In this document: one piece after another, positions 1 to 44,061 of the stretch
Numbering within the stretch: position 1 is the first letter of the stretch
How the letters are laid out: each line of letters begins with the position of its first letter
Source of the DNA: a virus
Lineage: Duplodnaviria; Heunggongvirae; Uroviricota; Caudoviricetes
Strand: one strand, 5' to 3'
DNA: 48,195 nt
IMG/VR virus record: IMGVR_UViG_2519899780_000006
Notes under the pieces: generated by a model
What the model saw: the letters and a program-made list of their open reading frames with translations, nothing else
The model's database searches: none
What the model was told of the DNA's origin: nothing
Position numbers and translations under genes: made by a program

Positions 1-582
1 TTACTCTGCAGGTGAAGTCGGCCACTCAATATCAGGTGCAGTTGATGTATCAACACGGTTCAGCAACACCCGATACTTTTTCCAGGCTTCCAGCAATGAG
101 GTTTCTTCCTCCGTTGCAATTTCCAGATCTGCAGCATCCTGAAGCGGCGCAATATGCTCACTGGCTACCTGCATCAGGTTGTTTTTTGTTTCTTCCGCCT
201 CCCGGATCCGGAACAGTTTTTCTGCTTCCGTATCCTTCACCCAGGCTGTGCCGTTCCACTTCTGAAACTCCCCTTCCGGCGATAACCAGGTAACATTTTC
301 CGGTAACGGACCGAGTTCAGAAATAAATAACTCGTCCCCTGACGCTACGTCATAAACCGTTTTACCCCGATGGTCTTCAACGAGATGCCACGATGCCTCA
401 TCACTGTTGAAAACAGCCACAAAGCCAGCAGGAATATCTGGTGGTGCAATATCGGTACTGTTTGCTGGCAGACCTGTATGAGGCGGAATATATGCGTCAC
501 CTTCACCAATAAATTCATTAGTTCCGGCCAGCAGATTATAAATTTTTATGGTCCGTGGTTGTTCACTCATTCTGAATGCCAT
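1..582 (-). CDS. tfa: Tail fiber assembly protein Tfa
   Basis: 193-aa ORF beginning [24 protein letters not shown], near-identical in my recollection to lambda Tfa; stop codon at window positions 1-3; follows stf as in lambda. Confidence 0.9.
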
Positions 583-3374
583 TATGCAAGCCTCACAATA
601 TAGTTAAATGCGATGTTTTTGACGGTGTTTTCCGCGTTACCAGCAGCGTTAACGGTGATGGTGTGTCCATGTGAACCAATCGCAACGGAGTGCGCATGAG
701 CACCAATTGGAACAGAGTGCGCATGGTTACCTGTAGTGCTTGTGGCACCAGACCAGGTTCTGGAAGCGTTAAAGTTTACAGGAACACCATAAGTAAATTG
801 AGAGCCCGTAAATCCATGGGCTGGCGCAGAGCCACCCAGTGTAAATGCTCCACTTGCTGTATAGAAATTACCGCTATCACTTCTGAAGTAACCGAGAGTA
901 CCGGTAATTTCCATAGTGCCTCGGCTGTGGTTATGGTCACCAGTGGCATTTGAAGACTTAGTACCATAATCAAACGACGACGTGGTTTTCGTCCCCAAAT
1001 CCGTACTGGATGCACTGGCGCTGTGGGTGTGCGATTTAATGCCGTCCTGTTCCTGAGACAATACGGCACGACCACTGGCAGGTTTGCCCTTAATCGTCCA
1101 GCCACGCATATCAGGGATCACGCCTGACGGATAAGCGGCTGCAAGTTTCGGGTAGGCAGATTTGTCAAAAGTCTGCCCCTGCATCAGGGCATAACCAGAC
1201 GGAACGGTATCTGATGGCCACGGGATTGGTGCGCCGACTGGGTAGCTTTCTGGTGGAAGATTTTTCGAGGTATAAACTTCTGCCCAGTCTTCCTCAAAAC
1301 CATAACCGTCTCTTGAAGAACGGTAGAACAGACCACCATTTCTGTAATGCGCCTTCATCTGCAGGGTCCGGCAACTTCCGACTCCGGTATAGAAGTTAAC
1401 CAGAATATAGCTGTCGCCAGAGCGGGTGACATTGTAAGCGCCTGATTCGGCATTCCAGGGAACGGCTCCATCCGAATCCGCATAAGCCCCCGTCGAACGT
1501 CGGGCAAATGCACCAATATTTTCCGGCGTGAGGTTAATATCCGCCGAGCCATCAAACTTAACACCGTTAATTTTTGGGGCTGCCGCAAGTTTCGTCGCGG
1601 TATCGGCGTTCCCCTTCAGTGCCCCGGTGATCCCATCAGTAACAGACAACGGACCTGAAATAGTCCCTCCAGTCGTTGGCAGCGCTCCAATATCTGATGG
1701 TGTAGGTTTCTGATGTGAGCTATACATCGTATAAACAACACCATCGGTAACGCTGGAAGGCTTACTCGCTGAATATGTTGGCGAGGTATAAATAGAAACT
1801 GACGCATTTGTAGTACAATCCCAATGGATATTTACACTCGTCGCATAATTGCCAATCTCAACGTAAATATCATATGTATCGCCGGATGTATTGACCCAGG
1901 CAAAATTTGTAAACCCTGTCGATGTGCGCTGCCATAAAGCACCAGTAATCCCCTTCGGATTACCATTACCTGCACGCAAAACAAGTTCAGATATACCTGC
2001 CTGTTGAGGTGCCCCCACGTTAAATCCAGCGCCACCAATCAACGTAATTGAAACAACAGAACTCGCCTGTGGCATGGTTACCGTTGCTAATTTGAACCAA
2101 CCAGCACCACCGCTGAATGACATTGTTGTTGAGTTAAGCGTACCAATATCTTTCGGCGTCAGTGTTATATCCGCCGAAAGCGCCTTACCATTCACCTTAC
2201 GGTCAGAAGGTACCCGACCATTCGCATTGTCATTCGCTGCTTTAACTGCCTTCGGTGTCGCGGCAAGCGTTTCAGATGTGCTGTTGGTCGCACTGCTGAG
2301 CTGTACTATCCCCTTTTTCGTCGTGCTCGCATCCTCAAGCGCCACGGCGGATGCAATATCCTCTGCCCGTTTTGCCGCTGTCTCAGCGCGCGTTGCTGCA
2401 GATTCCGCCGTACTTTTGCTCTGAGCTGCTGCCGTCGCACTGCCAACTGCCTCTGTCGCCTTCGTGGATGCCGTCGTGGCGCTGCCCTTCGCTGCTGACG
2501 CCTGTCTGGTCGCCTCATCTTTTGAAGCAGACGCCGATGATGCCGATGACGCCGCCGAACTGGCGGACGATGCCGCTGCCGTTTTTGAGGATTCTGCGCT
2601 GGTTTCCGAGGCTTTCGCGTTCGTTTCGGATGTCTTCGCTGCCTCTTTTGAGGCCGCCGCATCCCGTGCTGAAGTGGCTGCTTCTGACGCTTTCGTGGTC
2701 GCGGTGGATGCAGAAGTGGCTGCTGATTGTTGTGACGCTGCCGCATTCGTTTCTGACGTTTTCGCCGCACCGGCACTGGTGGCCGCCGCGCTTTTTGAGG
2801 ACTCTGCAGCGGCAGCACTTTTTGATGCTTCAGTGGCCTTTGTTGATGCCGTTCCTGCGCTGGAAGTCGCTGACTGAGCCGACGACGCGGCCTGTCCGGC
2901 TGACGTGCTGGCTGCGCGTGCTGAGCCTGCAGCATCAGTCGCATGGGTTGCCGCCTCACGGGCTGATGTGCTGGCATCACTGGCTGACTTCTTCGCGGCT
3001 GCCGTGTTCTGTGCCACCACGGACGCGTTACGCGCCACCTCTTCCACCATCAGTTCAAAACGTCGCAGTGCCTCCGGACGGGCATCATCCTCCGTCATGG
3101 CACCGAGAAAATCATTCAGCGTACCCGGTTGTGAGTCTTCATACACGGTGATGGTCCCGGCATGCGATGGCGGGAAGCCTTCCACCAACAGAATAACGCT
3201 GTACTGACCGTACTCAACGTCCATGCTGTAACGCCCTGCTTCATCCAGATTTTCAGATGCCAGCGTGTTCACCACCACCGTGGTGCTGTTACGTTTTGCT
3301 TTCAGCTGGATTGTGCAGTTCTGTACCGGTTTACCTACACCGTCTTTCAGTACACCTGAAATCTTTACTGCCAT
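582..3374 (-). CDS. stf: Side tail fiber protein Stf
   Basis: Long ORF with a central Ala/Ser/Thr-rich low-complexity segment and C-terminal His-x-His repeats ([21 protein letters not shown]). ATG at 3372-3374 is preceded by GGGGTG; the ORF track starts at an upstream GTG (3380). Confidence 0.85.
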
Positions 3375-3385
3375 ATTCACCCCAC

Positions 3386-3411
3386 AAAAAAGCCCGCCTG
3401 AACCGGCGGGC
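3386..3411 (-). terminator. Intrinsic terminator downstream of lom
   Basis: GC hairpin gcccgcc...ggcgggc followed on the minus strand by a U-run, just before the stf ribosome-binding site. Confidence 0.45.
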
Positions 3412-3438
3412 TGTCATAACACTGAGTTGCCTGGCTAA

Positions 3439-4038
3439 TCAGAACTTATAACCGACACCCACGATGAAACCGTCAGTGCGCCAGTCGCCACTGCCGGAGC
3501 CTTCATAAGCAATATCAATGGCCACGGATTCGGTCGGGTTAAACTGCACGCCAGCCCCCCACGCCAGAGACGTGTTGCTGTGGCGACCGTCATCACTTCC
3601 GGTCAGCACGTCGTGCGTTTTCCCCTTGTTGTCAGTTACGCGGAGATAATCCCCGGAGAAAGTCGACACACGGCTGTAAGCCACACCCGCCATCGCATAC
3701 GCGCTGAACCATTCATTCACGCGCACAGACGGCCCCGCCATTACGCTGAACCAGCGGTTACGAACGGAATCTTCATGCCAGCGGGTATCGCTGTAGTGCG
3801 TTTTTTTCTCATCTTCAGCATTGGCATAACTGAAGGACGTAATCAGCCCCAGCGCGTCCGTAAACTCATAACGGTATTTCACGTTAATCCCGTTCAGATT
3901 ATCGCTGCCGGGAGCGTTCGTACGGGCATGAAGATACCCCGCGCTCAGTGTGGACTGATGTTCAGACGCCCATGCAGGCGCACCGGATACGGACAGACAG
4001 ATGGCTGCGGACAAAATGGCTGCACAAACTTTACGCAT
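3439..4038 (-). CDS. lom: Lom/Ail-family outer membrane protein
   Basis: 199 aa with N-terminal signal peptide (MRKVCAAILSAAICLSVSGAPAWA) and beta-barrel-like sequence ending in F; sits between J and stf as in lambda. Confidence 0.85.
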   Translation of the reverse strand: MRKVCAAILSAAICLSVSGAPAWASEHQSTLSAGYLHARTNAPGSDNLNGINVKYRYEFTDALGLITSFSYANAEDEKKTHYSDTRWHEDSVRNRWFSVMAGPSVRVNEWFSAYAMAGVAYSRVSTFSGDYLRVTDNKGKTHDVLTGSDDGRHSNTSLAWGAGVQFNPTESVAIDIAYEGSGSGDWRTDGFIVGVGYKF

Positions 4039-17624: not shown

Positions 17625-19130
17625 TCATGGCATGGCCATGAGCATTTTCACGTCCGCATCACCGTCTGCTGACGTCTGTGACACGCCACCCCGCACCGCT
17701 GCCGGTGAATGATTCGCCATGAAATGTTCAAACAGGGCAGTTGTGGATGCAGAGACCGGTTCTGCTTTATCCGGCGATGAGGACAGAATGTCGCGGGCAG
17801 CCTCCACCGTCATTCCGGGAAACGCCGCCAGTTTTTCAGCCTGCGCCTCAGCCCCTTTTGCCTCATCCAGAGCCATAATCTGATCACGGAGTGAGGGTCC
17901 GGCATCCGCCTGCGGTGAAGCCGCCAGGATCGGGCGGGCTTTTTCCACCGTCATCTCCGGCATCGCCGCCAGCGTTGCCGCCAGTTGTTCACGACCTTTA
18001 GCCTCTTCACACGCCATAATGCGATCGGCTTCACTCTGCGTGGATGCCACCGGCTGCTGTGGTGCTGCCGCGGTCAGAATCGCCCGGGCCTGTTCAACGC
18101 TCATGCCCTGTTGTCCTGCCAGCATCGTGGCAAGGTGTTCACGTCCTTTCGCTTCCTGACACGTCAGGATCCCCATCACTCGCTGGTTCTCCTGCGCGGC
18201 AGCTTCCGTTGCAGTTAATTGCGGCATAGTGCCTCCTGTATCATGTGTGTTCAGCGCCGCAGCCATCACGCTGATGGCATCCGACGCATTGATTAATTCA
18301 TCCGCCAGCCCGGCCTCAATGCCGGACTGACCTTCAAAAACGGCGGCCTCTGTTCCCGTGACTGCATCAACAGACAGACCGGTATACATCGCCACTTTTT
18401 CGGCAAACATCCGGCGCGCCGCATCAATCCGCTGCTGCATGTCCTGGCGAACCTCTTCCGGCAACGCTTCAAACTGATTGCCATCCACCTTGTGCGCCCC
18501 TGAGTAAATCAGCGTGATATCCACACCGGCCTGCGCCAGATGACCGGCATAGCTGACATGGCTCATCATCACGCCAATGGAGCCGATACGGGATGTCTGG
18601 GTAACCAGCCGTCGGGAGCAGGCCGACGCCAGCAGCATGGCTGCAGAACAGGCCGTGTCATTGCACAGTGCCCAGACCGGCTTCTGCTGACGGAGGCGGT
18701 AAATCATGTCAGCACAGTCAAACGCACCGGCGGCCTGCCCGCCCGGACTGTCAATGTCCAGCAGTACGCCCCGCACCTGGCTATCCGCCATTGCCTGCTG
18801 AAGACAGGCGACAATGCCGTCATAGCCTGTCATTCCGGAAAATGGCCGCATACCCCCCAGCCGGTGCACCAGCGTGCCTGTCACCGGCAGTACAGCAATA
18901 CCGTTCACCACCCGGTAAACACGGGCCGGTCGTTTACCTCCGGCCATGTACTCGTCCGTTTCAGCCAGCATTCCGGGTGCATCAAGCTGTACCTGCTGTT
19001 GTGGTACCGAAAGACTTGCTGCCCCCATCTCGCGCCCGAGCGCGCAAAAGAAAACCCGCGCATAGGCGGGCTCCAGAAGCAGCGGTTCATTGAATGCTGC
19101 TGCAATAATGTGTGAAAGATTACGTCTCAC
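17625..19130 (-). CDS. C: Prohead protease C (S49/ClpP-like) with nested Nu3-like scaffold region
   Basis: 501 aa; N-terminal S49-peptidase-like region; C-terminal Ala-rich region with three tandem repeats of about 47-50 aa. Confidence 0.85.
   Translation of the reverse strand: MRRNLSHIIAAAFNEPLLLEPAYARVFFCALGREMGAASLSVPQQQVQLDAPGMLAETDEYMAGGKRPARVYRVVNGIAVLPVTGTLVHRLGGMRPFSGMTGYDGIVACLQQAMADSQVRGVLLDIDSPGGQAAGAFDCADMIYRLRQQKPVWALCNDTACSAAMLLASACSRRLVTQTSRIGSIGVMMSHVSYAGHLAQAGVDITLIYSGAHKVDGNQFEALPEEVRQDMQQRIDAARRMFAEKVAMYTGLSVDAVTGTEAAVFEGQSGIEAGLADELINASDAISVMAAALNTHDTGGTMPQLTATEAAAQENQRVMGILTCQEAKGREHLATMLAGQQGMSVEQARAILTAAAPQQPVASTQSEADRIMACEEAKGREQLAATLAAMPEMTVEKARPILAASPQADAGPSLRDQIMALDEAKGAEAQAEKLAAFPGMTVEAARDILSSSPDKAEPVSASTTALFEHFMANHSPAAVRGGVSQTSADGDADVKMLMAMP
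17760..18230 (-). repeat. Three tandem in-frame repeats of about 140-150 bp in the scaffold part of C
   Basis: Protein repeats IMxxxEAKGxExLAxxLAxxPxMTVExARxIL three times; DNA units begin near 17858, 17997 and 18147. Confidence 0.5.
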
Positions 19131-20712
19131 GTGGTGTTGTCTCCTCTTCCGGCCTGCGACTCTCCGCTATCTGCTGCTGATACGCCTGCGCTATCCACAC
19201 CGGACGTGAGAGTCCGGCTTTTTCCCGCTCTGCAGATTCCCTGACCTGCTGGCGGAAAATGTCCTGATAATCCTCGCCCATCAGCGCCAGCTCTTTCTCA
19301 TACGTGCTCAGTCCGGAATCAATACGCATCACCGATTCCTGAACCTCCTTGAGCCCGTCAATGGCCATTCTTCCGGCACCAATCCACTCAGCCCGTGACC
19401 AGGCTGAACGCGCCTGATAAAAATCAAAACGTGCCCGTGGCGGACGAATAATCCCCCGAAGAAGTGCCTCTTCCAGCCAGCAGGAAAACATCTGCGTGGC
19501 CAGCCGGGACGCAATAAATTTTCGCCGCCCCATAAAATAGCGCCACGACTCATTGGCGGAGGCGCGGGCACTTGAATAACTGACCTTCGAGTAATCACGG
19601 GACAACTGTTCGTAGGAAACGCCAAGACCGGCGGCGATATACCGCAGCAGCGCCTGTTCAAGCGCCGAAAATCCATTGTCTGAATCCTGCGCGGTCTGAA
19701 GTTTCAGATCATCACCGGGGAAAAGGTGCGGAATTTTGACACCGCCCAGCGTCACGCTATTCGTGTCATACCAGGTGGAGAACTTATCCAGAATATTAAT
19801 AAGCGGATTATCCTTCTGCCCCTGCGGCGCACCGGCGATATATTCAAAGGCCTTTTCGGTATCAAGGTCACTTTCAATCGTCGCTGCATACATCGCCTTC
19901 ACTATGGCCGACTGAAGCTGTGTTGCCTGCAGGGAATCCAGCATCTTCAGCCGTTCCATAACGCTGTAAAACTGATTGGCTCCACGGGTCTGCCCGTCCT
20001 CCACCGGCTCGAAAATATGCAGCATGGCCGGACGCCCGGTGGGAAGTTCACGCGGGATCCGTTCCCATCGTCCACTCCCGGAGCGAGGAAAATCATCCTC
20101 ACAGATATGGTACGCAACGGCACGGCCATATCGATCAACCTCCACACCGGCCCGCAGAAAACGGTTCCCGATACCGTGTCCTGGCGTGTCCACCCGTTTC
20201 GGACTCACGGCTTTAAAACGCGTACGAAACAGTTGCGTGCTCTCCGTATCCCAGACCGGCTGCACAAAGATTTCGCCGTTAAACGCATGAACGCCCACAC
20301 CTTCACGGATAAATTCCGTAAACGTGCGTTTCCCTTCCACGTCGATCTCACCAAACATCCCTTCTGCGTATTCTGACCAGGCCGCCTCCACCTCATCGAC
20401 AAAACTTTTTGCCGCGGTCTCCCGCATCCCCAGCCAGCGCCAGTTCGGACGGTAGCTAATCAGAAACATATGCCCGACAATGTGATCCTTATGCAGGGCC
20501 ACCGCATTGGCCGCTATTCCGTTATTGCGCACCAGATCATCTGCCCGGGCATTCCCCAGACGCAACGCGGGCAGCAGGGCCGCATCGGCACTCTGCGCCG
20601 GTGGCAACCACTCAGCCATTTGCCCGCCAAATCCTGCACCGCCCCCGTTGTAGCTGAGACTATCACGAAGCGGAACGCCGTTCACATCAATCAGGACAGG
20701 CGTTCGTTTCAT
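19120..20712 (-). CDS. B: Portal protein B
   Basis: 530 aa, lambda gpB length; between W and C. Confidence 0.9.
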   Translation of the reverse strand: MKRTPVLIDVNGVPLRDSLSYNGGGAGFGGQMAEWLPPAQSADAALLPALRLGNARADDLVRNNGIAANAVALHKDHIVGHMFLISYRPNWRWLGMRETAAKSFVDEVEAAWSEYAEGMFGEIDVEGKRTFTEFIREGVGVHAFNGEIFVQPVWDTESTQLFRTRFKAVSPKRVDTPGHGIGNRFLRAGVEVDRYGRAVAYHICEDDFPRSGSGRWERIPRELPTGRPAMLHIFEPVEDGQTRGANQFYSVMERLKMLDSLQATQLQSAIVKAMYAATIESDLDTEKAFEYIAGAPQGQKDNPLINILDKFSTWYDTNSVTLGGVKIPHLFPGDDLKLQTAQDSDNGFSALEQALLRYIAAGLGVSYEQLSRDYSKVSYSSARASANESWRYFMGRRKFIASRLATQMFSCWLEEALLRGIIRPPRARFDFYQARSAWSRAEWIGAGRMAIDGLKEVQESVMRIDSGLSTYEKELALMGEDYQDIFRQQVRESAEREKAGLSRPVWIAQAYQQQIAESRRPEEETTPRET

Positions 20713-29114: not shown

Positions 29115-29341
29115 GTCCATAAGAAAGCCCCTCCGGAGAGGGGCTGGAGAGTGGCGCTATGTGCCATTGCATGGTGCCGGGTGCCTCCCGGTGAATTCAG
29201 TACCAGCACCTGAATCCGCGATTATCCCATATACCTACTCGCTGATTGCCCCTCCGCACAGGGGGATTCACCATGCCAGTTTCTTTTAACAAACTCCCCG
29301 CAAAACAGACAACTGTCAACCGTCTGAATTGTGAGACATTT

Positions 29342-29381: not shown

Positions 29382-29458
29382 TGGCGCGTTGTACTGGATT
29401 CGAACCAGTGACCGATTGCTTAGAAGGCAATTGCTCTGTCCGGCTGAGCTAACAACGC
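29382..29458 (-). tRNA. argO: tRNA-Arg (anticodon UCU)
   Basis: 77-nt cloverleaf folded by hand: acceptor GCGTTGT/ACAACGC, D stem GCTC/GAGC, anticodon loop CUUCUAA, T loop TTCGAAT, 3' CCA encoded. Confidence 0.85.
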
Positions 29459-29474
29459 AGGATACAGATAATGA

Positions 29475-29548
29475 ACCGCCTTCGGGGACCCGAACTCCGC
29501 GCAACCAGCTTCGAAGGCTGGCGCTCTATCCTGATGAGCTAATGGCGG
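29475..29548 (-). tRNA. argN: tRNA-Arg (anticodon UCG), slightly imperfect
   Basis: About 74 nt; anticodon loop CUUCGAA; T loop TTCGGGT; one mismatch each in acceptor and T stems; no encoded CCA. Ends approximate. Confidence 0.6.
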
Positions 29549-29555
29549 TATGTGA

Positions 29556-29631
29556 TGGTGGCCCTTGCTGGATTTGAACCAGCGACCTGGCGATTATGAG
29601 TCGCTCGCTCTCACCACTGAGCTAAAGGGCC
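29556..29631 (-). tRNA. ileZ: tRNA-Ile2 (anticodon CAU), ileX/ileZ-like
   Basis: 76 nt reading GGCCCTTTAGCTCAGTGGTGAGAGCGAGCGACTCATAATCGC...CCACCA, close to E. coli ileX as recalled. Confidence 0.85.
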
Positions 29632-34006: not shown

Positions 34007-34162
34007 TTACTCCTCAGGTTCGTAAGCTGTGAAGACAGCGACCTCCGTCTGGCCGGTTCGGATTCGTACCTCGCAGAGGTCTTTCCTCGTTACCAGTGCC
34101 GTCACTATGACGGTTAAACAGATGACGATCAGGGCGATTAACATCGCCTTTTGCTGCTTCAT
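34007..34162 (-). CDS. hokD: Hok/Gef-family type I toxin
   Basis: 51-aa ORF MKQQKAMLIALIVICLTVIVTALVTRKDLCEVRIRTGQTEVAVFTAYEPEE, hand-translated; absent from the ORF track (under 60 aa); matches HokD/RelF as recalled. Confidence 0.85.
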   Translation of the reverse strand: MKQQKAMLIALIVICLTVIVTALVTRKDLCEVRIRTGQTEVAVFTAYEPEE

Positions 34163-34420
34163 AGCCTGCTTCTCCTTGACCTTTCGGTCCGTAAGAGGCT
34201 AATCTCTATGTGTCGCATAGATATGGCCTCAGATTAATGTTAAGCGTCTTGCAGGACGCGTAATGTTAACTGGGGCTTTTCTCTATCTGCCTTTTGGTGT
34301 TCATGCCTGAGACAGATAGCCTCAAGCACCCGCAGTCATTCTACTTAACTAAGATTTCCCCGCAAACCGTTTTTGTCCGGCACAGTAAATATCCAACTAA
34401 ACCAATGGCGTTCGCTGTAT

Positions 34421-40559: not shown

Positions 40560-40985
40560 TTAGTGCATCACCACAGCATTCCCTGCCGGGCCGCCGCGAT
40601 TCATCTGGTCATACAAAACAACCGCTGACGCAACAAAATCATCGACATCCTTCACCAGCCGATCCCTCCGTTCGACGATCTCACGGTAATATTCAGAACT
40701 GTGGCTGCGCATACGGGCCACCAGCAAAGGCGGCATCGCCTTTTCGATCGCCGGTAACAGAGCCTGCATTTTTTCAACAGCATCAGGGGTGTCTTTATCC
40801 AGCCAACGGAAAATTTTCTGGGTATTACGGGCCAGGGCTTCCGGATGGCTGTCGTCATACAGTTCCGGGAACGTCATTCCCAGCTCGAAATACGCTTTGG
40901 TAATTTTCGCAGCCGGTACTTTTTCGCCGTCCGGATGCGCCCAGGCATTCATTGCCATGCGGATGTGTTCATGCTTGATTTTCAT
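40560..40985 (-). CDS. YdaT-like protein in the CII position
   Basis: 141 aa, MKIKHEHIRMAMNAWAHPDGEKVPAAKITKAYFELGMTF; resembles Rac YdaT as I recall it. Confidence 0.5.
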   Translation of the reverse strand: MKIKHEHIRMAMNAWAHPDGEKVPAAKITKAYFELGMTFPELYDDSHPEALARNTQKIFRWLDKDTPDAVEKMQALLPAIEKAMPPLLVARMRSHSSEYYREIVERRDRLVKDVDDFVASAVVLYDQMNRGGPAGNAVVMH

Positions 40986-41244
40986 GAATCACCCCCGCCT
41001 CTGGTTGTGTGTTAGCCTGATACTCGACAGGTAAGCCGTCGGTTGGGTTGGGATAAGTACTGCCATCAATCTCGTGCGGAGTTACTATCCAGCCTGTTGC
41101 TTCGCACCAGCGTAAAATTTTTTTCCCCGTAAGTTTCGCCCGTCCGGTAATGACATGGCTTACCATCCCTTGGGTTACCCCAACAATTTCAGCAAAATGC
41201 TTCTGAGTTATACCGGAATGATGCAAATATTCTCCAAGATTCAT
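40969..41244 (-). CDS. Cro-like HTH regulator (YdaS-like)
   Basis: 91 aa; HTH ITQKHFAEIVGVTQGMVSHVI; divergent from the repressor gene. Confidence 0.6.
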   Translation of the reverse strand: MNLGEYLHHSGITQKHFAEIVGVTQGMVSHVITGRAKLTGKKILRWCEATGWIVTPHEIDGSTYPNPTDGLPVEYQANTQPEAGVIHENQA

Positions 41245-41351
41245 TGTTCACCTCATGTGATGTCATCACGATCATTAATAGCATTGTTATTTTTAAAAGT
41301 AAATAGCATCACTATTTCAAAGAGATTAATAATCTTATTAGAATTGAAGGT
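41245..41351. promoter_or_regulatory. Divergent promoter/operator region of the immunity switch
   Basis: 107-bp AT-rich gap between divergent HTH genes; repeated AATAGCAT half-site-like motifs. Confidence 0.4.
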
Positions 41352-41852
41352 ATGAAAAGAAAATCCCTGTCAGAGATCGACCTGCAAGCCGCCCAGAGAC
41401 TGAAAGAAATCTGGACGGCGAAAAAAAATCAACTAGGGTTAACCCAAGAGCGTGCGGCAGAAATTCTGGGATTTTCGACACAGGGAGCTGTAAGCCATTA
41501 TCTAAATGGTCAGACACCTTTAAATCTTGAGGCTGTTATCAAGTTCGCAGGGTTGCTGCAAGTTCCTCCCGAGTCAATCAGACCAGATATGGCCGAGTTG
41601 TTACAAATTGTAAGGATGTATCCCCAAGAATCTGGGGAGGACAATGTTGTCACTATATCTGCAGATATGGAACAATCGGAAAACGAACTTCCGTTTAATA
41701 TAGACCCCATGGAGCGGGATTTGCTCCAGACGTTCAGGGCTTTCCCCAAAGAAGATAAAGAGAAAATGCTTAAGGAAATGAAGGAGAAAAAAGAATCAAT
41801 TGAAGAAATCGTTGCGCGATGGCTAGCTGCGCAAAAGGGTCGTCGCGCCTAA
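41352..41852 (+). CDS. HTH repressor in the CI position (PaaR2/RacR-like)
   Basis: 166 aa; HTH LTQERAAEILGFSTQGAVSHYLNG; no obvious S24 peptidase domain; first gene of a three-gene operon. Confidence 0.6.
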   Translation: MKRKSLSEIDLQAAQRLKEIWTAKKNQLGLTQERAAEILGFSTQGAVSHYLNGQTPLNLEAVIKFAGLLQVPPESIRPDMAELLQIVRMYPQESGEDNVVTISADMEQSENELPFNIDPMERDLLQTFRAFPKEDKEKMLKEMKEKKESIEEIVARWLAAQKGRRA

Positions 41853-41869
41853 TCTGAGGAGGTAAAAAC

Positions 41870-42061
41870 ATGAGTACAGCCCTTTCCCCGATAATTTCTG
41901 AATTTGAAACAGTCGAACAAGAAAACAGCTATAACGAATGGTTGCGAACCAAAGTGGCAGCAAGCCTCTCAGATCCCCGTCCTGCAATTCCACATGACGA
42001 AGTAATGGCTGAAATGGAAAACCTTATTGCTCAATTAGCTGCAACGAACAGGAGTGAGTAA
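41870..42061 (+). CDS. Antitoxin, PaaA2-like
   Basis: 63 aa acidic protein immediately upstream of and overlapping the ParE-like toxin gene. Confidence 0.65.
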   Translation: MSTALSPIISEFETVEQENSYNEWLRTKVAASLSDPRPAIPHDEVMAEMENLIAQLAATNRSE

Positions 42062-42351
42062 TGCTGCCCATTTTATGGCTACCTTCTGCACGTGATGATT
42101 TACGTCAGATCGTAGCCTATATTGCTAAGGAAAACCCTCCCGCTGCACGTAGACTAAAAATACGCATTGAAACATCAGTTTTGTCACTTACTGAACACCC
42201 TTATCTGTACCCACCGAGCGAAAGAGTTCCAAGTCTTCGTGAGATAGTGACTCATCCTAACTACATAATACTTTACCGAGTAACAGCATCTAACATCGAG
42301 ATCGTAAATGTAGTTCACTCACGAAGACAGTATCCAAACAAAACCTGTTAA
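42061..42351 (+). CDS. ParE/RelE-superfamily toxin (ParE2-like)
   Basis: 96 aa; EHPYLYPPSERVPSLREIVTHPNYIILYRV matches the ParE family as recalled; ATGA-coupled to the antitoxin. Confidence 0.7.
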   Translation: MLPILWLPSARDDLRQIVAYIAKENPPAARRLKIRIETSVLSLTEHPYLYPPSERVPSLREIVTHPNYIILYRVTASNIEIVNVVHSRRQYPNKTC

Positions 42352-42365
42352 TCCTTCCTGTCAAC

Positions 42366-42388
42366 AACCACCTTCGGGTGGTTTTTTT
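42366..42388 (+). terminator. Intrinsic terminator of the repressor-TA operon
   Basis: Hairpin aaccacc ttcg ggtggtt followed by TTTTT. Confidence 0.5.
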
Positions 42389-42620
42389 CTTGCCACGATA
42401 ATAGCACTGCTATTTACATAATTAAATAGTAGTGGTATTGTTCATTCATCAACCCACCCCGCCCCACAGAACGCCAGGCAATACTTCGAGTTACCCGGCA
42501 GTGGTCAGGGGTTAAGTAGCCAGCCCGAGGCGTAAGAACATGACGGCAGGGTTCAACTTTAATAACTATGCAGCAGGTTTTTGTTCCGCTACCCCGGCGT
42601 TAAGGGGAAATGAGGTCAGC

Positions 42621-42773
42621 ATGGATACTATCGATCTTGGCAACAACGAATCTCTGGTATGCGGTGTGTTCCCTAACCAGGACGGCACCTTCACCGCGAT
42701 GACGTATACCAAAAGTAAAACGTTTAAAACCGCAGCTGGCGCGCATCGCTGGTTAGCAAGAAACACTGACTGA
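42621..42773 (+). CDS. Small prophage protein (YdaF-like)
   Basis: 50 aa MDTIDLGNNESLVCGVFPNQDGTFTAMTYTKSKTF with GAGG 5 nt upstream of ATG 42621; the ORF track gives a longer version from 42540. Confidence 0.4.
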   Translation: MDTIDLGNNESLVCGVFPNQDGTFTAMTYTKSKTFKTAAGAHRWLARNTD

Positions 42774-43123
42774 TGAGGTTGACGATGGAATTTAAAGATT
42801 TACCTCCTTCAATCCAGGAGATTGCAGCACACACACTTCGTCATCGTCTGAACGAACTTGAATTGGAATCGGTAACAAAAAAAGACACTGATAATATGGC
42901 TCGTAATGTGCGCGATGCGTTTACTGGGCTGTTTTCAGATACAGCTTTAAATATCCATGGCACAGAGGATACAGCAAAACAATTTGCAGAAAAAGAAGTG
43001 GAAGATCCCAGCTCAAAGAGCCAGAAACAGCCAAACAACCATGAAATTAACGAACTGCTTCTGGCAACAGGCTTCATAAATATTAACGAATATGAACGCC
43101 GTAAAAAAATGTTATCTGATTAA
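42773..43123 (+). CDS. Hypothetical protein
   Basis: 116-aa ORF; likelier start at MEFKDL (42785) with GAGG upstream. Confidence 0.4.
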   Translation: MRLTMEFKDLPPSIQEIAAHTLRHRLNELELESVTKKDTDNMARNVRDAFTGLFSDTALNIHGTEDTAKQFAEKEVEDPSSKSQKQPNNHEINELLLATGFININEYERRKKMLSD

Positions 43124-43306: not shown

Positions 43307-43872
43307 TTTATCCTCCATTGAGGTTACTGGTTGAGAATGGAGACCTCTCGTGACAGCGTGTGGTCGTGCGCCGGACACGGATAAGAATCCGGCACTGACA
43401 GTTTACTGAAAGGATATTTCCCTGAAAAGTCAGACCATAACGCGAAAGCGCACGGCGAGGTAGCTGGTTCATAGATAGCCTGTCGTTAAATTTTCGTCGA
43501 CCGTGCGCTTCCGGTTGTGGCAATCCGCGAAATGGCGCGGCGGTAAGTATGGCGGGGTTATTCCTTCCCCCGTTGAGGACACCGGGTTGTCAGGTTGGCC
43601 ATACGCTTAAGTGACAACCCCGCTGCAACGCCCTCTGTTATCAATTTTCTGGTGACGTTTGGCGGTATCAGTTTTACTCCGTGACTGCTCTGCCGCCCTT
43701 TTTAAAGTGAATTTTGTGATGTGGTGAATGCGGCTGAGCGCACGCGGAACAGTTAAAACCAAAAACAGTGTTATGGGTGGATTCTCTGTATCCGGCGTTA
43801 ATTGTTAACTGGTTAACGTCACCTGGAGGCACCAGGCACCGCATCACAAAATTCATTGTTGAGGACGCGATA

Positions 43873-44061
43873 ATGGAAACGTTATTACCAAACGTTAATA
43901 CGTCTGAAGGTTGTTTTGATATTGGTGTTCTGCTCAGTAACCGGGAGTTTACTGAAGATGCCATTAATATGAGGAAATATGAGCCTTATCTGCTCAATGA
44001 TAATTCCATACTTTCCCGAATTGCTCTTCTTGAACTTGGTATTTTCGGAGAGCGTCAATGA
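43873..44061 (+). CDS. Hypothetical small protein
   Basis: 62 aa METLLPNVNTSEGCFDIGVLL; GAGGA upstream; ATGA-coupled to the next ORF; low GC. Confidence 0.35.
   Translation: METLLPNVNTSEGCFDIGVLLSNREFTEDAINMRKYEPYLLNDNSILSRIALLELGIFGERQ

What the first reader, a model, noticed from the sequence alone, without database searches (positions are those of the whole stretch)
41352..42392. Immunity repressor co-transcribed with a ParE-family toxin-antitoxin pair
The gene in the cI position, divergent from the Cro-like gene, is the first gene of a three-gene operon whose other members are a 63-aa antitoxin and a ParE/RelE-fold toxin, closed by a clean terminator. This links lysogenic maintenance to an addiction or abortive-infection module and resembles the PaaR2-PaaA2-ParE2 arrangement of O157 prophages as I recall it. 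The repressor has no obvious LexA-type autocleavage domain, so the induction mechanism is unclear.
Basis: partly seen in the sequence, partly recalled or inferred. Interest (0 to 1): 0.55.

Follow-up and report, generated by a model that had tools for sequence, protein, structure and literature searches.

The report
PaaR–PaaA–ParE prophage immunity operon
A lambda-like E. coli prophage has its repressor gene in one operon with a ParE-type toxin-antitoxin pair; this arrangement is already characterised in O157:H7 prophages, and the only difference here is a lambda-cI-like DNA-binding head on the repressor.

Summary
Three co-oriented ORFs (166, 63 and 96 aa; 41352-42351) are followed by a hairpin and T-run terminator, and they diverge from a Cro-like gene.

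The 63-aa protein is a PaaA antitoxin (Pfam PaaA2, E 1e-21; PDB 3zbe, E 2e-22). The 96-aa protein is a ParE toxin (PDB 5cw7_B, E 5e-36). They are 84-85% identical to the second O157:H7 paralogue and 62-65% identical to PaaA2/ParE2.

The whole circuit has been worked out experimentally for CP-933P (Jurenas 2021, PMC8630535). That work covers a repressor in the cI position, YdaS as Cro, YdaT as CII, a leaderless repressor mRNA, the TA in the rexAB slot and the absence of an autocleavage domain.

The new detail is that the repressor is a mosaic. Residues 1-90 are a lambda-cI-type N-terminal domain, and only residues ~117-166 are PaaR-like.

Four matching palindromic operators (AATAGn5CTATT) lie in two pairs. 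One pair overlaps PR and abuts PRM; the other overlaps a PL-like promoter just past the terminator.

The Cro head, the repressor head, OR and OL are specific to this immunity type. The TA and the repressor tail are shared with other types.

Verdict: a new heteroimmune member of a known system. Interest is low to moderate.

The parts
40560..40985 (-). YdaT-family gene (141 aa), the CII analogue, second gene of the rightward PR operon
   Evidence: Pfam YdaT_toxin E 2.8e-10. 99% nucleotide identity to the CP-933P-type locus L005. The CII-like role was shown for the CP-933P homologue (PMC8630535, PMC9986795).
40975..40992 (.). YdaT-operator-like inverted repeat TTGATTttcatgAATCAc at the ydaS/ydaT junction (PRE region analogue)
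   Evidence: One mismatch to the published YdaT site TTGATTN6AATCAA, and in the same position as OM of CP-933P. A single such site is not significant by count alone (2 found against 2.5 expected at up to 2 mismatches), so position is the argument.
40969..41244 (-). Cro-like (YdaS-position) HTH gene, 91 aa. Its N-terminal HTH is specific to this immunity type; its C-terminal ~40 aa are shared with the second O157-type loci.
   Evidence: Pfam HTH_3 E 9e-6; alignment A6; DNA similarity to L003/L004/L006 stops at 41059.
41275..41303 (-). PR-like promoter read by eye: -35 TTTACT (41303-41298), 17-nt spacer, -10 TATTAA (41280-41275). A GAGGTG Shine-Dalgarno lies 4 nt before the ATG at 41244.
   Evidence: Read from the sequence. 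It falls below the scan tool's threshold. It has the same layout as the PL-like promoter, with the shared motif GCTATTTAC spanning the operator end and the -35.
41277..41291 (.). Operator OR-a, AATAGCATTGTTATT; overlaps the PR -10
   Evidence: Half-sites are conserved in relatives 77-92% identical.
41302..41316 (.). Operator OR-b, AATAGCATCACTATT (perfect palindromic half-sites). It overlaps the PR -35 and abuts the PRM -35. Its centre lies about 43 bp upstream of the repressor ATG.
41316..41344 (+). PRM-like promoter: -35 TTCAAA, 17-nt spacer, -10 TAGAAT. The -10 ends 7 nt before the ATG, which is the geometry of a leaderless mRNA.
   Evidence: The same geometry is seen in L005 (GATAAT, 6 nt, ATG), where leaderless translation is experimentally shown, and in L003 (TAAAAT, 6 nt, ATG).
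41352..41852 (+). Immunity repressor, 166 aa. Residues 1-89 (41352-41618) form a lambda-cI-type five-helix N-terminal domain. Residues 90-116 are a disordered linker. Residues 117-166 (41700-41849) form a PaaR/DicA-type helical C-terminal domain.
   Evidence: phmmer to lambda cI N-terminal domain, E 1e-9. AF2 model with Foldseek: TM 0.81-0.93 normalised to the target, rmsd 1.0-1.7 A for the best-superposing entries and 2.9 A for 1rio_A. The PaaR similarity lies mainly in the C-terminal ~50 residues (BLASTP 47% identity over 87 aligned positions, E 8e-23). The DicA C-terminus matches at E 1.5e-7, below the family cut-off. No Peptidase_S24 domain.
41870..42061 (+). PaaA-type antitoxin, 63 aa, with no DNA-binding domain
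   Evidence: PDB 3zbe PaaA2 E 2e-22; Pfam PF21217 PaaA2 E 1e-21. 84-87% identity to L003/L004/L006 and 62% to PaaA2. dN/dS 0.05-0.2.
42061..42351 (+). ParE-family toxin, 96 aa; its start overlaps the antitoxin stop
   Evidence: PDB 5cw7_B ParE2 E 5e-36; Pfam ParE_toxin E 7e-18. 85% identity to the L003 toxin and 65% to ParE2. dN/dS about 0.03 where it could be estimated.
42366..42392 (+). Intrinsic terminator closing the operon
   Evidence: Stem of 7 pairs, 4-nt loop, T-run.
42400..42414 (.). Operator OL-a, AATAGCACTGCTATT; overlaps the PL -35
   Evidence: The 40-nt block 42400-42439 is an inverted copy of 41277-41316 (I1). Conserved in relatives.
42425..42439 (.). Operator OL-b, AATAGTAGTGGTATT; overlaps the PL -10
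42413..42441 (+). PL-like promoter (-35 TTTACA, 17-nt spacer, TG-extended -10 TATTGT). It drives the ydfA...dicF-dicB-exo-xis-int direction.
   Evidence: This segment differs in each immunity type, whereas the sequence from 42450 onward is conserved in all of them.

Best explanation
This is the immunity region of a lambdoid prophage of the Qin/CP-933 kind, integrated between potB and potC in E. coli. It is built on the published PaaR-PaaA-ParE plan.

The 166-aa protein is the prophage's cI-equivalent. Its lambda-cI-type N-terminal domain binds 15-17-bp palindromes (AATAGn5CTATT). Two of these lie at OR, 25 bp apart, where they cover the -10 and -35 of PR. Two more lie at OL with the same spacing, where they cover PL.

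The PRM-proximal OR site sits about 43 bp upstream of the repressor's start. By my recollection this is where lambda cI at OR2 touches sigma, and the two acidic activation residues are conserved (E33 and E37, matching lambda E34 and D38). Bound repressor therefore probably also stimulates its own leaderless transcript.

The short helical C-terminal domain is shared with PaaR1, PaaR2 and DicA. It replaces the S24 autocleavage and oligomerisation domain of lambda cI, and it presumably provides dimer and higher-order contacts; PaaR2 is an octamer. This could allow cooperativity and looping between OR and OL, which are 1.1 kb apart.

The same transcript carries paaA and parE, which occupy the rexA-rexB slot. 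A labile PaaA neutralises a stable ParE that acts on the nucleoid or on topoisomerases. Cells that lose the immunity region are then poisoned, which is addiction.

The Cro-like gene and the YdaT (CII-like) gene provide the opposing and establishing arms of a bistable switch.

Shown here: homologies, gene layout, operator repeats, promoter geometry and mosaic boundaries. Inferred from the CP-933P experiments: DNA binding, leaderless translation, bistability, toxicity and addiction.
For: The TA pair is identified by PDB and Pfam matches.

The repressor N-terminal domain matches lambda cI by sequence and by fold. Its C-terminal domain matches PaaR1 and PaaR2 and the C-terminus of DicA.

The operator pattern occurs 5 times at up to 1 mismatch against 0.65 expected, and none of 100 shuffles reaches 5. 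Four of the five sites lie in two pairs that flank the operon as inverted 40-nt blocks.

The operator half-sites are conserved and the central 5 bp vary in relatives 77-92% identical.

The PRM and PL promoters were found by the scan tool. The leaderless geometry is shared with the experimentally leaderless paaR2.

A YdaT site lies at the expected position.

OR, OL, the repressor head and the Cro head are specific to this immunity type, while the TA, the repressor tail and the flanks are shared.

dN/dS for the TA genes is 0.03-0.2.

The annotation of the near-identical prophage shows no other repressor gene.

Experimental precedent is in PMC8630535, PMC9986795 and PMC4803016.
Against: Nothing was tested functionally for this allele.

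Only two good operators are found per side, whereas lambda has three and CP-933P has four repeats. No convincing OR3-like site overlapping PRM was found, so negative autoregulation is unexplained.

The PR promoter was read by eye and falls below the scan tool's threshold.

The C-terminal domain was modelled only as a monomer, so oligomerisation is extrapolated from PaaR2.

Jurenas et al. detected no ParE2 activity in either transcriptional state, so the biological role of the TA remains a hypothesis even in the model system.
Confidence: 0.85

Rival explanations
1. The TA pair is mainly an anti-phage (abortive infection or exclusion) cargo, expressed from the lysogenic transcript as rexAB is in lambda, rather than an addiction module for the prophage.
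For: It occupies exactly the rexA-rexB slot (PMC9986795). In relatives with the same repressor head the slot holds other cargo, HipA_2 plus DUF3037, or is empty. That is typical of a variable accessory slot. No activation of ParE2 was seen in either switch state.
Against: There are no PADLOC matches for any of the three proteins. Plasmid stabilisation by post-segregational killing has been demonstrated for the homologous locus. No phage-defence phenotype is reported in the papers read. The two roles are not mutually exclusive.
Confidence: 0.15
2. The 166-aa protein is only the detached DNA-binding part of the antitoxin, that is, a regulator of the TA operon and not the repressor that maintains lysogeny.
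For: This was the original view of PaaR in three-component TA systems. The PaaA-ParE complex also partly represses the promoter.
Against: The same operators sit over the divergent PR-like promoter and over a PL-like promoter beyond the terminator. The head is 52% identical to the cI heads of Stx2a phages. No other repressor is annotated in the prophage. PaaR2 was shown to repress PR and PL analogues.
Confidence: 0.05
3. The module is a decaying remnant: the toxin or the switch is inactive and the arrangement is a relic.
For: The best-studied homologue lies in a cryptic prophage. In the 99.9% identical FDAARGOS_401 copy the portal gene is frameshifted.
Against: All three ORFs are intact. dN/dS is 0.03-0.2 against diverged alleles. 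The region is present at 91% identity or more in 69 of the 71 complete E. coli genomes that carry it. In this window the portal ORF is intact, and a full set of lambdoid morphogenesis, lysis, Q, int and xis genes is present.
Confidence: 0.05

Closest known systems
paaR2-paaA2-parE2 with ydaS-ydaT, immunity region of cryptic prophage CP-933P / Sp12 of E. coli O157:H7 (Hallez 2010; Jurenas 2021, PMC8630535)
   Same: The gene order R-A-E is the same, in the cI position and divergent from ydaS-ydaT and an O-like gene. The O and ydaT genes are 99% identical at the DNA level. The -10 sits 6-7 nt before the repressor ATG. There is an OL/PL set beyond the operon. The repressor has no S24 domain. The repressor's C-terminal ~50 aa are homologous. 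The antitoxin is 62% identical and the toxin 65%.
   Different: The repressor N-terminal domain is unrelated in sequence. PaaR2's head (PDB 7nkv) is not matched; here the head is lambda-cI-like. The protein is 166 aa rather than 123 aa, with a ~25-residue disordered linker. The operators differ: AATAGn5CTATT here, GTTTAGTAA repeats there. The Cro-like head differs. The prophage here looks structurally complete rather than cryptic.
Second paaR-paaA-parE paralogue of O157:H7. Locus L003 is taken to be the CP-933M-type paaR1-paaA1-parE1 by exclusion; the name was not verified here.
   Same: These are the closest TA alleles, with the antitoxin 84% and the toxin 85% identical. The repressor C-terminal domain is about 65-70% identical. 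The Cro C-terminal tail is shared. Downstream lies the same ydfA...dicB operon.
   Different: The repressor head, the Cro head, OR and OL are all different, so the two are heteroimmune. PaaA1 and PaaA2 do not cross-neutralise (PMC4803016). Cross-talk with this allele is unknown.
Bacteriophage lambda cI-rexA-rexB with OR/OL
   Same: The repressor N-terminal domain is homologous: 35-39% identity, TM up to 0.93 normalised to the target, rmsd 1.0 A for 3kz3. Operators are about 17 bp and palindromic, arranged in OR and OL sets. The promoter-proximal operator lies at about -43 of PRM, and the acidic residues matching lambda E34 and D38 are conserved. The mRNA is leaderless. Accessory genes are co-transcribed after the repressor.
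   Different: There is no S24 autocleavage C-terminal domain. There are two clear operators per side rather than three. A ParE TA replaces RexAB. The CII analogue is a YdaT.
DicA repressor of the Qin prophage (E. coli K-12)
   Same: It is a short HTH repressor in the cI position controlling a ydfA...dicF-dicB operon. DicF RNA and dicB lie downstream here too. The C-terminal ~55 residues are similar (NF007257 positions 75-130, E 1.5e-7).
   Different: The score of 31 bits is far below the family cut-off of 101, the head is different, and Qin has no PaaA-ParE behind dicA.
cI of Stx2a-converting phages (e.g. Lyz12581Vzw, F039)
   Same: Residues 2-90 are 52% identical, so this is the nearest known relative of the DNA-binding head.
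   Different: Those proteins are LexA-family repressors with a cleavable C-terminal domain and are not followed by a ParE TA.

Membership tests
PaaR-PaaA-ParE three-component TA / lambdoid immunity operon | Three co-oriented genes in the order regulator, antitoxin, toxin, tightly spaced and ending in a terminator | tested here: met
PaaR-PaaA-ParE three-component TA / lambdoid immunity operon | Antitoxin of the PaaA family: about 63 aa, with no DNA-binding domain | tested here: met
   Pfam PF21217, 77 bits against a cut-off of 27; PDB 3zbe E 2e-22
PaaR-PaaA-ParE three-component TA / lambdoid immunity operon | Toxin of the ParE family, close to ParE1/ParE2 of O157:H7 | tested here: met
   Pfam PF05016, 65.5 bits against a cut-off of 23; PDB 5cw7_B E 5e-36; 85% and 65% identity
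PaaR-PaaA-ParE three-component TA / lambdoid immunity operon | Regulator homologous to PaaR over its whole length | tested here: not met
   Only residues ~117-166 align convincingly with PaaR1 and PaaR2. The head is lambda-cI-type. PaaR1 and PaaR2 heads also differ from each other, so head identity may not define the family.
PaaR-PaaA-ParE three-component TA / lambdoid immunity operon | Located in the cI position, divergent from ydaS/ydaT-like genes, next to an O-like gene | tested here: met
PaaR-PaaA-ParE three-component TA / lambdoid immunity operon | Leaderless regulator mRNA | tested here: inconclusive
   The -10 TAGAAT ends 7 nt before the ATG, as in paaR2. There are no transcript data.
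PaaR-PaaA-ParE three-component TA / lambdoid immunity operon | Toxicity of ParE, neutralisation by the cognate PaaA, protease-labile antitoxin, plasmid stabilisation | not testable with these tools
   Only indirect support: intact ORFs and dN/dS of 0.03-0.2
Lambda cI / LexA-type (S24) phage repressors | Five-helix cI-type N-terminal DNA-binding domain | tested here: met
Lambda cI / LexA-type (S24) phage repressors | C-terminal Peptidase_S24 autocleavage domain (Ala-Gly site, Ser/Lys dyad) | tested here: not met
   No PF00717 hit. The C-terminal domain is modelled as two helices. A distant relative, P0031, with a related head (43% identity) does carry PF00717.
DicA family (NCBIfam NF007257) | Whole-protein score above the curated cut-off | tested here: not met
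   31.2 bits against a cut-off of 101; only the C-terminal 55 positions match

The most novel reading that the evidence does not exclude
In this prophage family the four immunity determinants lie on both sides of a conserved core. The determinants are the Cro head, the repressor head, OR and OL. The core is the repressor tail plus PaaA-ParE. Each immunity type carries its own TA allele, and the known alleles do not cross-neutralise. The TA may therefore act as a lock that forces the OR-side and OL-side determinants to be inherited together: only recombinants that keep a matched TA survive. This would turn the recombination-protection idea of Jurenas et al. into something testable by comparing breakpoints. 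The tandem-HTH forms, which join a lambda-like head to a whole PaaR1-like protein, could be fusion intermediates in such head swaps, or repressors with dual specificity.
Probability: 0.2. Interest if true: 0.45.

Novelty: new member of a known kind. Interest (0 to 1): 0.25.

Why it matters
It extends a well-studied but narrow model (CP-933P) to a third immunity type. This type is found in about 1.3% of complete E. coli genomes, including O104:H4 strains, and here it sits in a prophage that looks structurally intact.

Because the head is lambda-cI-like, decades of knowledge of the lambda cI N-terminal domain apply directly. This includes operator recognition and the sigma contact made from OR2. 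The PaaR-type tail could therefore be studied on a familiar chassis.

The mosaic boundaries also bear on whether the TA stabilises the immunity region against recombination. None of this changes the current picture, so the value is incremental.

Tried and rejected
- **Phage collection, DNA search:** megablast of the region against the INPHARED phage collection found nothing.
- **Phage collection, protein search:** this found only a ParE2-type locus in phage Evi and cI heads in Stx2a phages.
- **PADLOC:** no defence-system match for any of the three proteins.
- **SOS-controlled antirepressor as the induction route:** only two exact CTGTN8ACAG sites exist in the window. One lies in a tail gene and one inside ORF 42773-43123. 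PHROGs gave no antirepressor among nine early-region ORFs, and none is annotated in the near-identical prophage. This does not exclude one.
- **Third OR operator over PRM:** only a weak half-site-like match at about 41337-41351 (D1) and an unrelated 13-bp palindrome, AGATTAATAATCT, at 41323-41335. Neither could be assigned.
- **Conserved PL leader (42445-42545) as a structured RNA:** z-score -0.05, and no Rfam hit there.
- **Internal promoter-like site at 41647-41676:** it lies inside the repressor gene, but promoter-like sites in the region are not enriched over shuffles (4 against 2.6), so it was not interpreted.
- **Offset error:** my first assumption of a simple coordinate offset to FDAARGOS_401 failed because of a 1-nt indel in the portal gene.
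Full report
**Observation**

The coordinates are accurate. Three + strand ORFs run from 41352 to 42351: 166 aa, 63 aa and 96 aa. A 17-nt gap carrying a GAGGAGG ribosome-binding site separates the first two. The antitoxin stop and the toxin start overlap (TAATG). A hairpin plus T-run lies at 42366-42392. A 91-aa HTH gene diverges from the operon across a 107-bp intergenic region. It is followed by a YdaT-family gene and an O-like gene.

**Origin of the window**

The window is 99.9% identical to a prophage lying between potB and potC in E. coli FDAARGOS_401. The 1.2-kb immunity segment is 100% identical in several other complete genomes, including O104:H4 strains.

The prophage has a full lambda-like set of tail, head, terminase, lysis, Q, int and xis genes. 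It is not in the phage-genome collection at megablast level.

**What the three proteins are**

- **63-aa protein.** It matches PaaA2 in the PDB (3zbe, E 2e-22) and the Pfam PaaA2 family (77 bits against a cut-off of 27).
- **96-aa protein.** It matches ParE2 (5cw7_B, E 5e-36) and Pfam ParE_toxin.
- **Comparison with O157-lineage loci.** I fetched the two paralogous loci. L005 encodes proteins identical to the crystallised PaaR2 head, PaaA2 and ParE2. L003 is the second O157:H7 locus, which I take by exclusion to be the paaR1-paaA1-parE1 paralogue. The window's antitoxin and toxin are 84-85% identical to the L003 pair and 62-65% identical to PaaA2 and ParE2.
- **Selection.** Against these alleles dN/dS is 0.03-0.2, with synonymous sites near saturation. 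The TA genes are therefore kept under purifying selection.

**The repressor is a mosaic**

BLASTP against the L003 regulator aligns the C-terminal part (47% identity over 87 aligned positions, E 8e-23). The multiple alignment shows that the invariant positions cluster in the last ~45 residues, in the motif LLQ.F.AFP......K.KK.S.....ARW.AAQK..RA. The same stretch matches the C-terminus of DicA (E 1.5e-7, well below the family cut-off).

Residues 2-90 instead match the lambda cI N-terminal domain (E 1e-9). An AlphaFold2 model built on 22 homologues has these features:

- a confident five-helix head (pLDDT about 86-94 over most of it);
- a disordered linker (residues 93-113, pLDDT below 50);
- a helix-turn-long-helix tail.

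The ten best Foldseek matches in the PDB are all structures containing the lambda cI N-terminal domain. TM scores normalised to the target are 0.81-0.93 for the isolated-domain entries, and rmsd is 1.0-1.7 A for most, with 2.9 A for 1rio_A. Pfam finds no Peptidase_S24 domain.

The nearest heads in sequenced phages are those of the LexA-type cI proteins of Stx2a-converting phages (52% identity over residues 2-90).

**Operators and promoters**

The palindrome AATAGn5CTATT occurs five times in the window at up to one mismatch. The expectation is 0.65, and none of 100 shuffles reaches five. Four of the five sites form two pairs, each with 25-bp spacing:

- 41277 and 41302, in the divergent intergenic region;
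- 42400 and 42425, just past the terminator.

The two 40-nt blocks are inverted copies of each other.

In relatives whose immunity segment is 77-92% identical, the half-sites are conserved while the central five bases vary. This is what protein contacts at the half-sites would predict.

The scan tool finds two promoters:

- A PRM-like promoter: TTCAAA, 17-nt spacer, TAGAAT, at 41316-41344.
- A PL-like promoter: TTTACA, 17-nt spacer, TG-TATTGT, at 42413-42441. Its hexamers overlap the two OL sites.

Reading the minus strand by eye gives a PR-like promoter with the same layout: TTTACT, 17-nt spacer, TATTAA, at 41303-41275. It overlaps both OR sites and is followed by a GAGGTG ribosome-binding site before the Cro-like ATG.

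The PRM -10 ends 7 nt before the repressor ATG. The corresponding distance is 6 nt in L005 and L003, and paaR2 is experimentally leaderless.

The promoter-proximal OR site is centred about 43 bp upstream of the ATG. From my own knowledge, lambda OR2 is centred near -42 of PRM, from where cI activates through Glu34 and Asp38. The aligned residues here are Glu33 and Glu37 (alignment).

I found no convincing third OR site.

A near-perfect YdaT site (TTGATTttcatgAATCAc) lies at the ydaS/ydaT junction. That is where the high-affinity OM site lies in CP-933P.

**Mosaic structure of the region**

- **Against the CP-933P-type locus.** The O and ydaT genes are 99% identical up to 40991. There is then no similarity until 41781.
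- **Against the L003-type loci.** Similarity stops at 41059, inside the Cro-like gene. It resumes at 41697-41722, at the start of the repressor tail, and runs through the TA at 77-78%.
- **Terminator and OL/PL segment (about 42352-42449).** This differs in every immunity type. From 42450 onward all types are alike.
- **The Cro-like protein.** It shows the same pattern as the repressor: a divergent HTH head and a shared C-terminal tail.

The specificity determinants are therefore type-specific. They are the Cro head, OR, the repressor head and OL. They flank a shared but anciently diverged core made of the repressor tail plus PaaA-ParE.

**Relatives of the repressor**

The 166-aa form occurs in E. 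coli, E. albertii and Shigella at 77-100% identity. It is present in 71 of 5426 complete E. coli genomes. By comparison, 841 genomes carry some paaA-parE homologue.

- **Tandem-HTH forms (240-255 aa).** Metagenome-derived proteins carry a head of the same kind as the one here (about 63-75% identical), followed by an entire PaaR1-like HTH and the PaaR tail. They occupy the same cI position. The slot behind them holds HipA_2 plus DUF3037, or nothing.
- **S24 form.** A more distant relative (43% identity over the head) has a related head joined to a Peptidase_S24 domain.

**Comparison with what is known**

- Hallez et al. 2010 defined the three-component paaR-paaA-parE systems and showed that PaaA1 and PaaA2 do not cross-neutralise. 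I take this from PMC4803016 and PMC3141249, not from the original paper.
- Jurenas et al. 2021 (PMC8630535) established the following:
  - PaaR2 sits in the cI position and binds OR-like repeats.
  - It represses the PR and PL analogues and activates PRM at low dose.
  - It is translated from a leaderless mRNA.
  - Together with YdaS (Cro-like) and YdaT (CII-like) it forms a bistable switch.
  - It lacks the RecA-dependent cleavage motif and does not respond to mitomycin C.
  - The locus stabilises plasmids.
- Prolic-Kalinsek et al. 2023 (PMC9986795) state that paaA2-parE2 replace rexA-rexB.

The present locus is thus a further heteroimmune member of this system. Its distinguishing features are a lambda-cI-type head and its presence in a prophage that appears structurally complete. 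The portal ORF is intact here but frameshifted in the FDAARGOS_401 copy.

**Mechanism and its status**

- **Shown by sequence:** the homologies, the operon layout, the operator sets, the promoter geometry and the mosaic boundaries.
- **Inferred from homologues:** DNA binding, leaderless translation, tail-mediated oligomerisation with possible OR-OL looping, ParE toxicity and addiction.
- **Induction route:** it remains unknown here, as it does for PaaR2. I found no recognisable antirepressor and no convincing LexA box.

**Verdict**

The finding is a new member of a known kind, of low to moderate interest. The mosaic repressor and the split arrangement of the specificity determinants around the TA are the only points beyond the published picture.

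Noticed in passing
window 43647-43698 (+) and 43768-44061 (+): A DicF antisense sRNA (Rfam, 76.7 bits) and a dicB-containing ORF lie downstream of the PL-like promoter. The leftward operon controlled by this repressor is therefore the ydfA...dicF-dicB cell-division-inhibitor operon known from Qin.
   Followed up: partly
window 34160-34331 (-): A sok antitoxin RNA (Rfam, 106.7 bits) lies next to the annotated hokD gene. This is a second, type I, toxin-antitoxin system in the same prophage.
   Followed up: no
P0013-P0022; loci L011 4001-4735, L013 4001-4768: Repressors of 240-255 aa have two HTH domains in tandem: a lambda-like head of the same kind as here, then a whole PaaR1-like HTH and the PaaR tail. 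They sit in the same cI position opposite Cro-like and YdaT genes. They could be fusion intermediates or repressors with dual specificity.
   Followed up: partly
L011 4787-6360; L012 2298-3871: In those relatives the slot behind the repressor holds a HipA_2 (PF20613) plus DUF3037 gene pair instead of PaaA-ParE. In L013 and L014 the slot is nearly empty. The post-repressor (rexAB) slot is a variable cargo site.
   Followed up: no
window 42450-42540 (+): A ~90-nt leader between the PL-like promoter and ydfA is almost invariant across all immunity types (97.5% identical to L005), although the operator segment just upstream differs in each. It has no significant predicted RNA structure (z -0.05) and no Rfam match.
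   Followed up: partly
window 42929-42944 (+): An exact CTGTN8ACAG (LexA-box-like) sequence, CTGTTTTCAGATACAG, lies inside ORF 42773-43123 of the leftward operon. It may be chance: 2 in the window against 0.5 expected.
   Followed up: no
window 41323-41335: A 13-bp palindrome, AGATTAATAATCT, lies between the -35 and -10 of the PRM-like promoter. It is largely conserved in relatives and unrelated to the main operator. It could be a site for the Cro-like protein.
   Followed up: no
window 19120-20712 (-): The portal ORF is intact (530 aa) in the window, but it is annotated as frameshifted in the 99.9% identical prophage of FDAARGOS_401 because of a 1-nt indel.
   Followed up: partly
L007 (Escherichia phage Evi LR597642.1) 2916-3776: A deposited phage genome carries a PaaR2/PaaA2/ParE2-type immunity region. 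Its ParE gene (locus 3501-3776) is not annotated.
   Followed up: partly
window 41-239 (-), 29115-29305 (-), 29385-29631 (-): IS009 RNA, the STnc100 sRNA and three tRNA genes (Arg, Arg, Ile in the annotated twin) lie elsewhere in the prophage.
   Followed up: no
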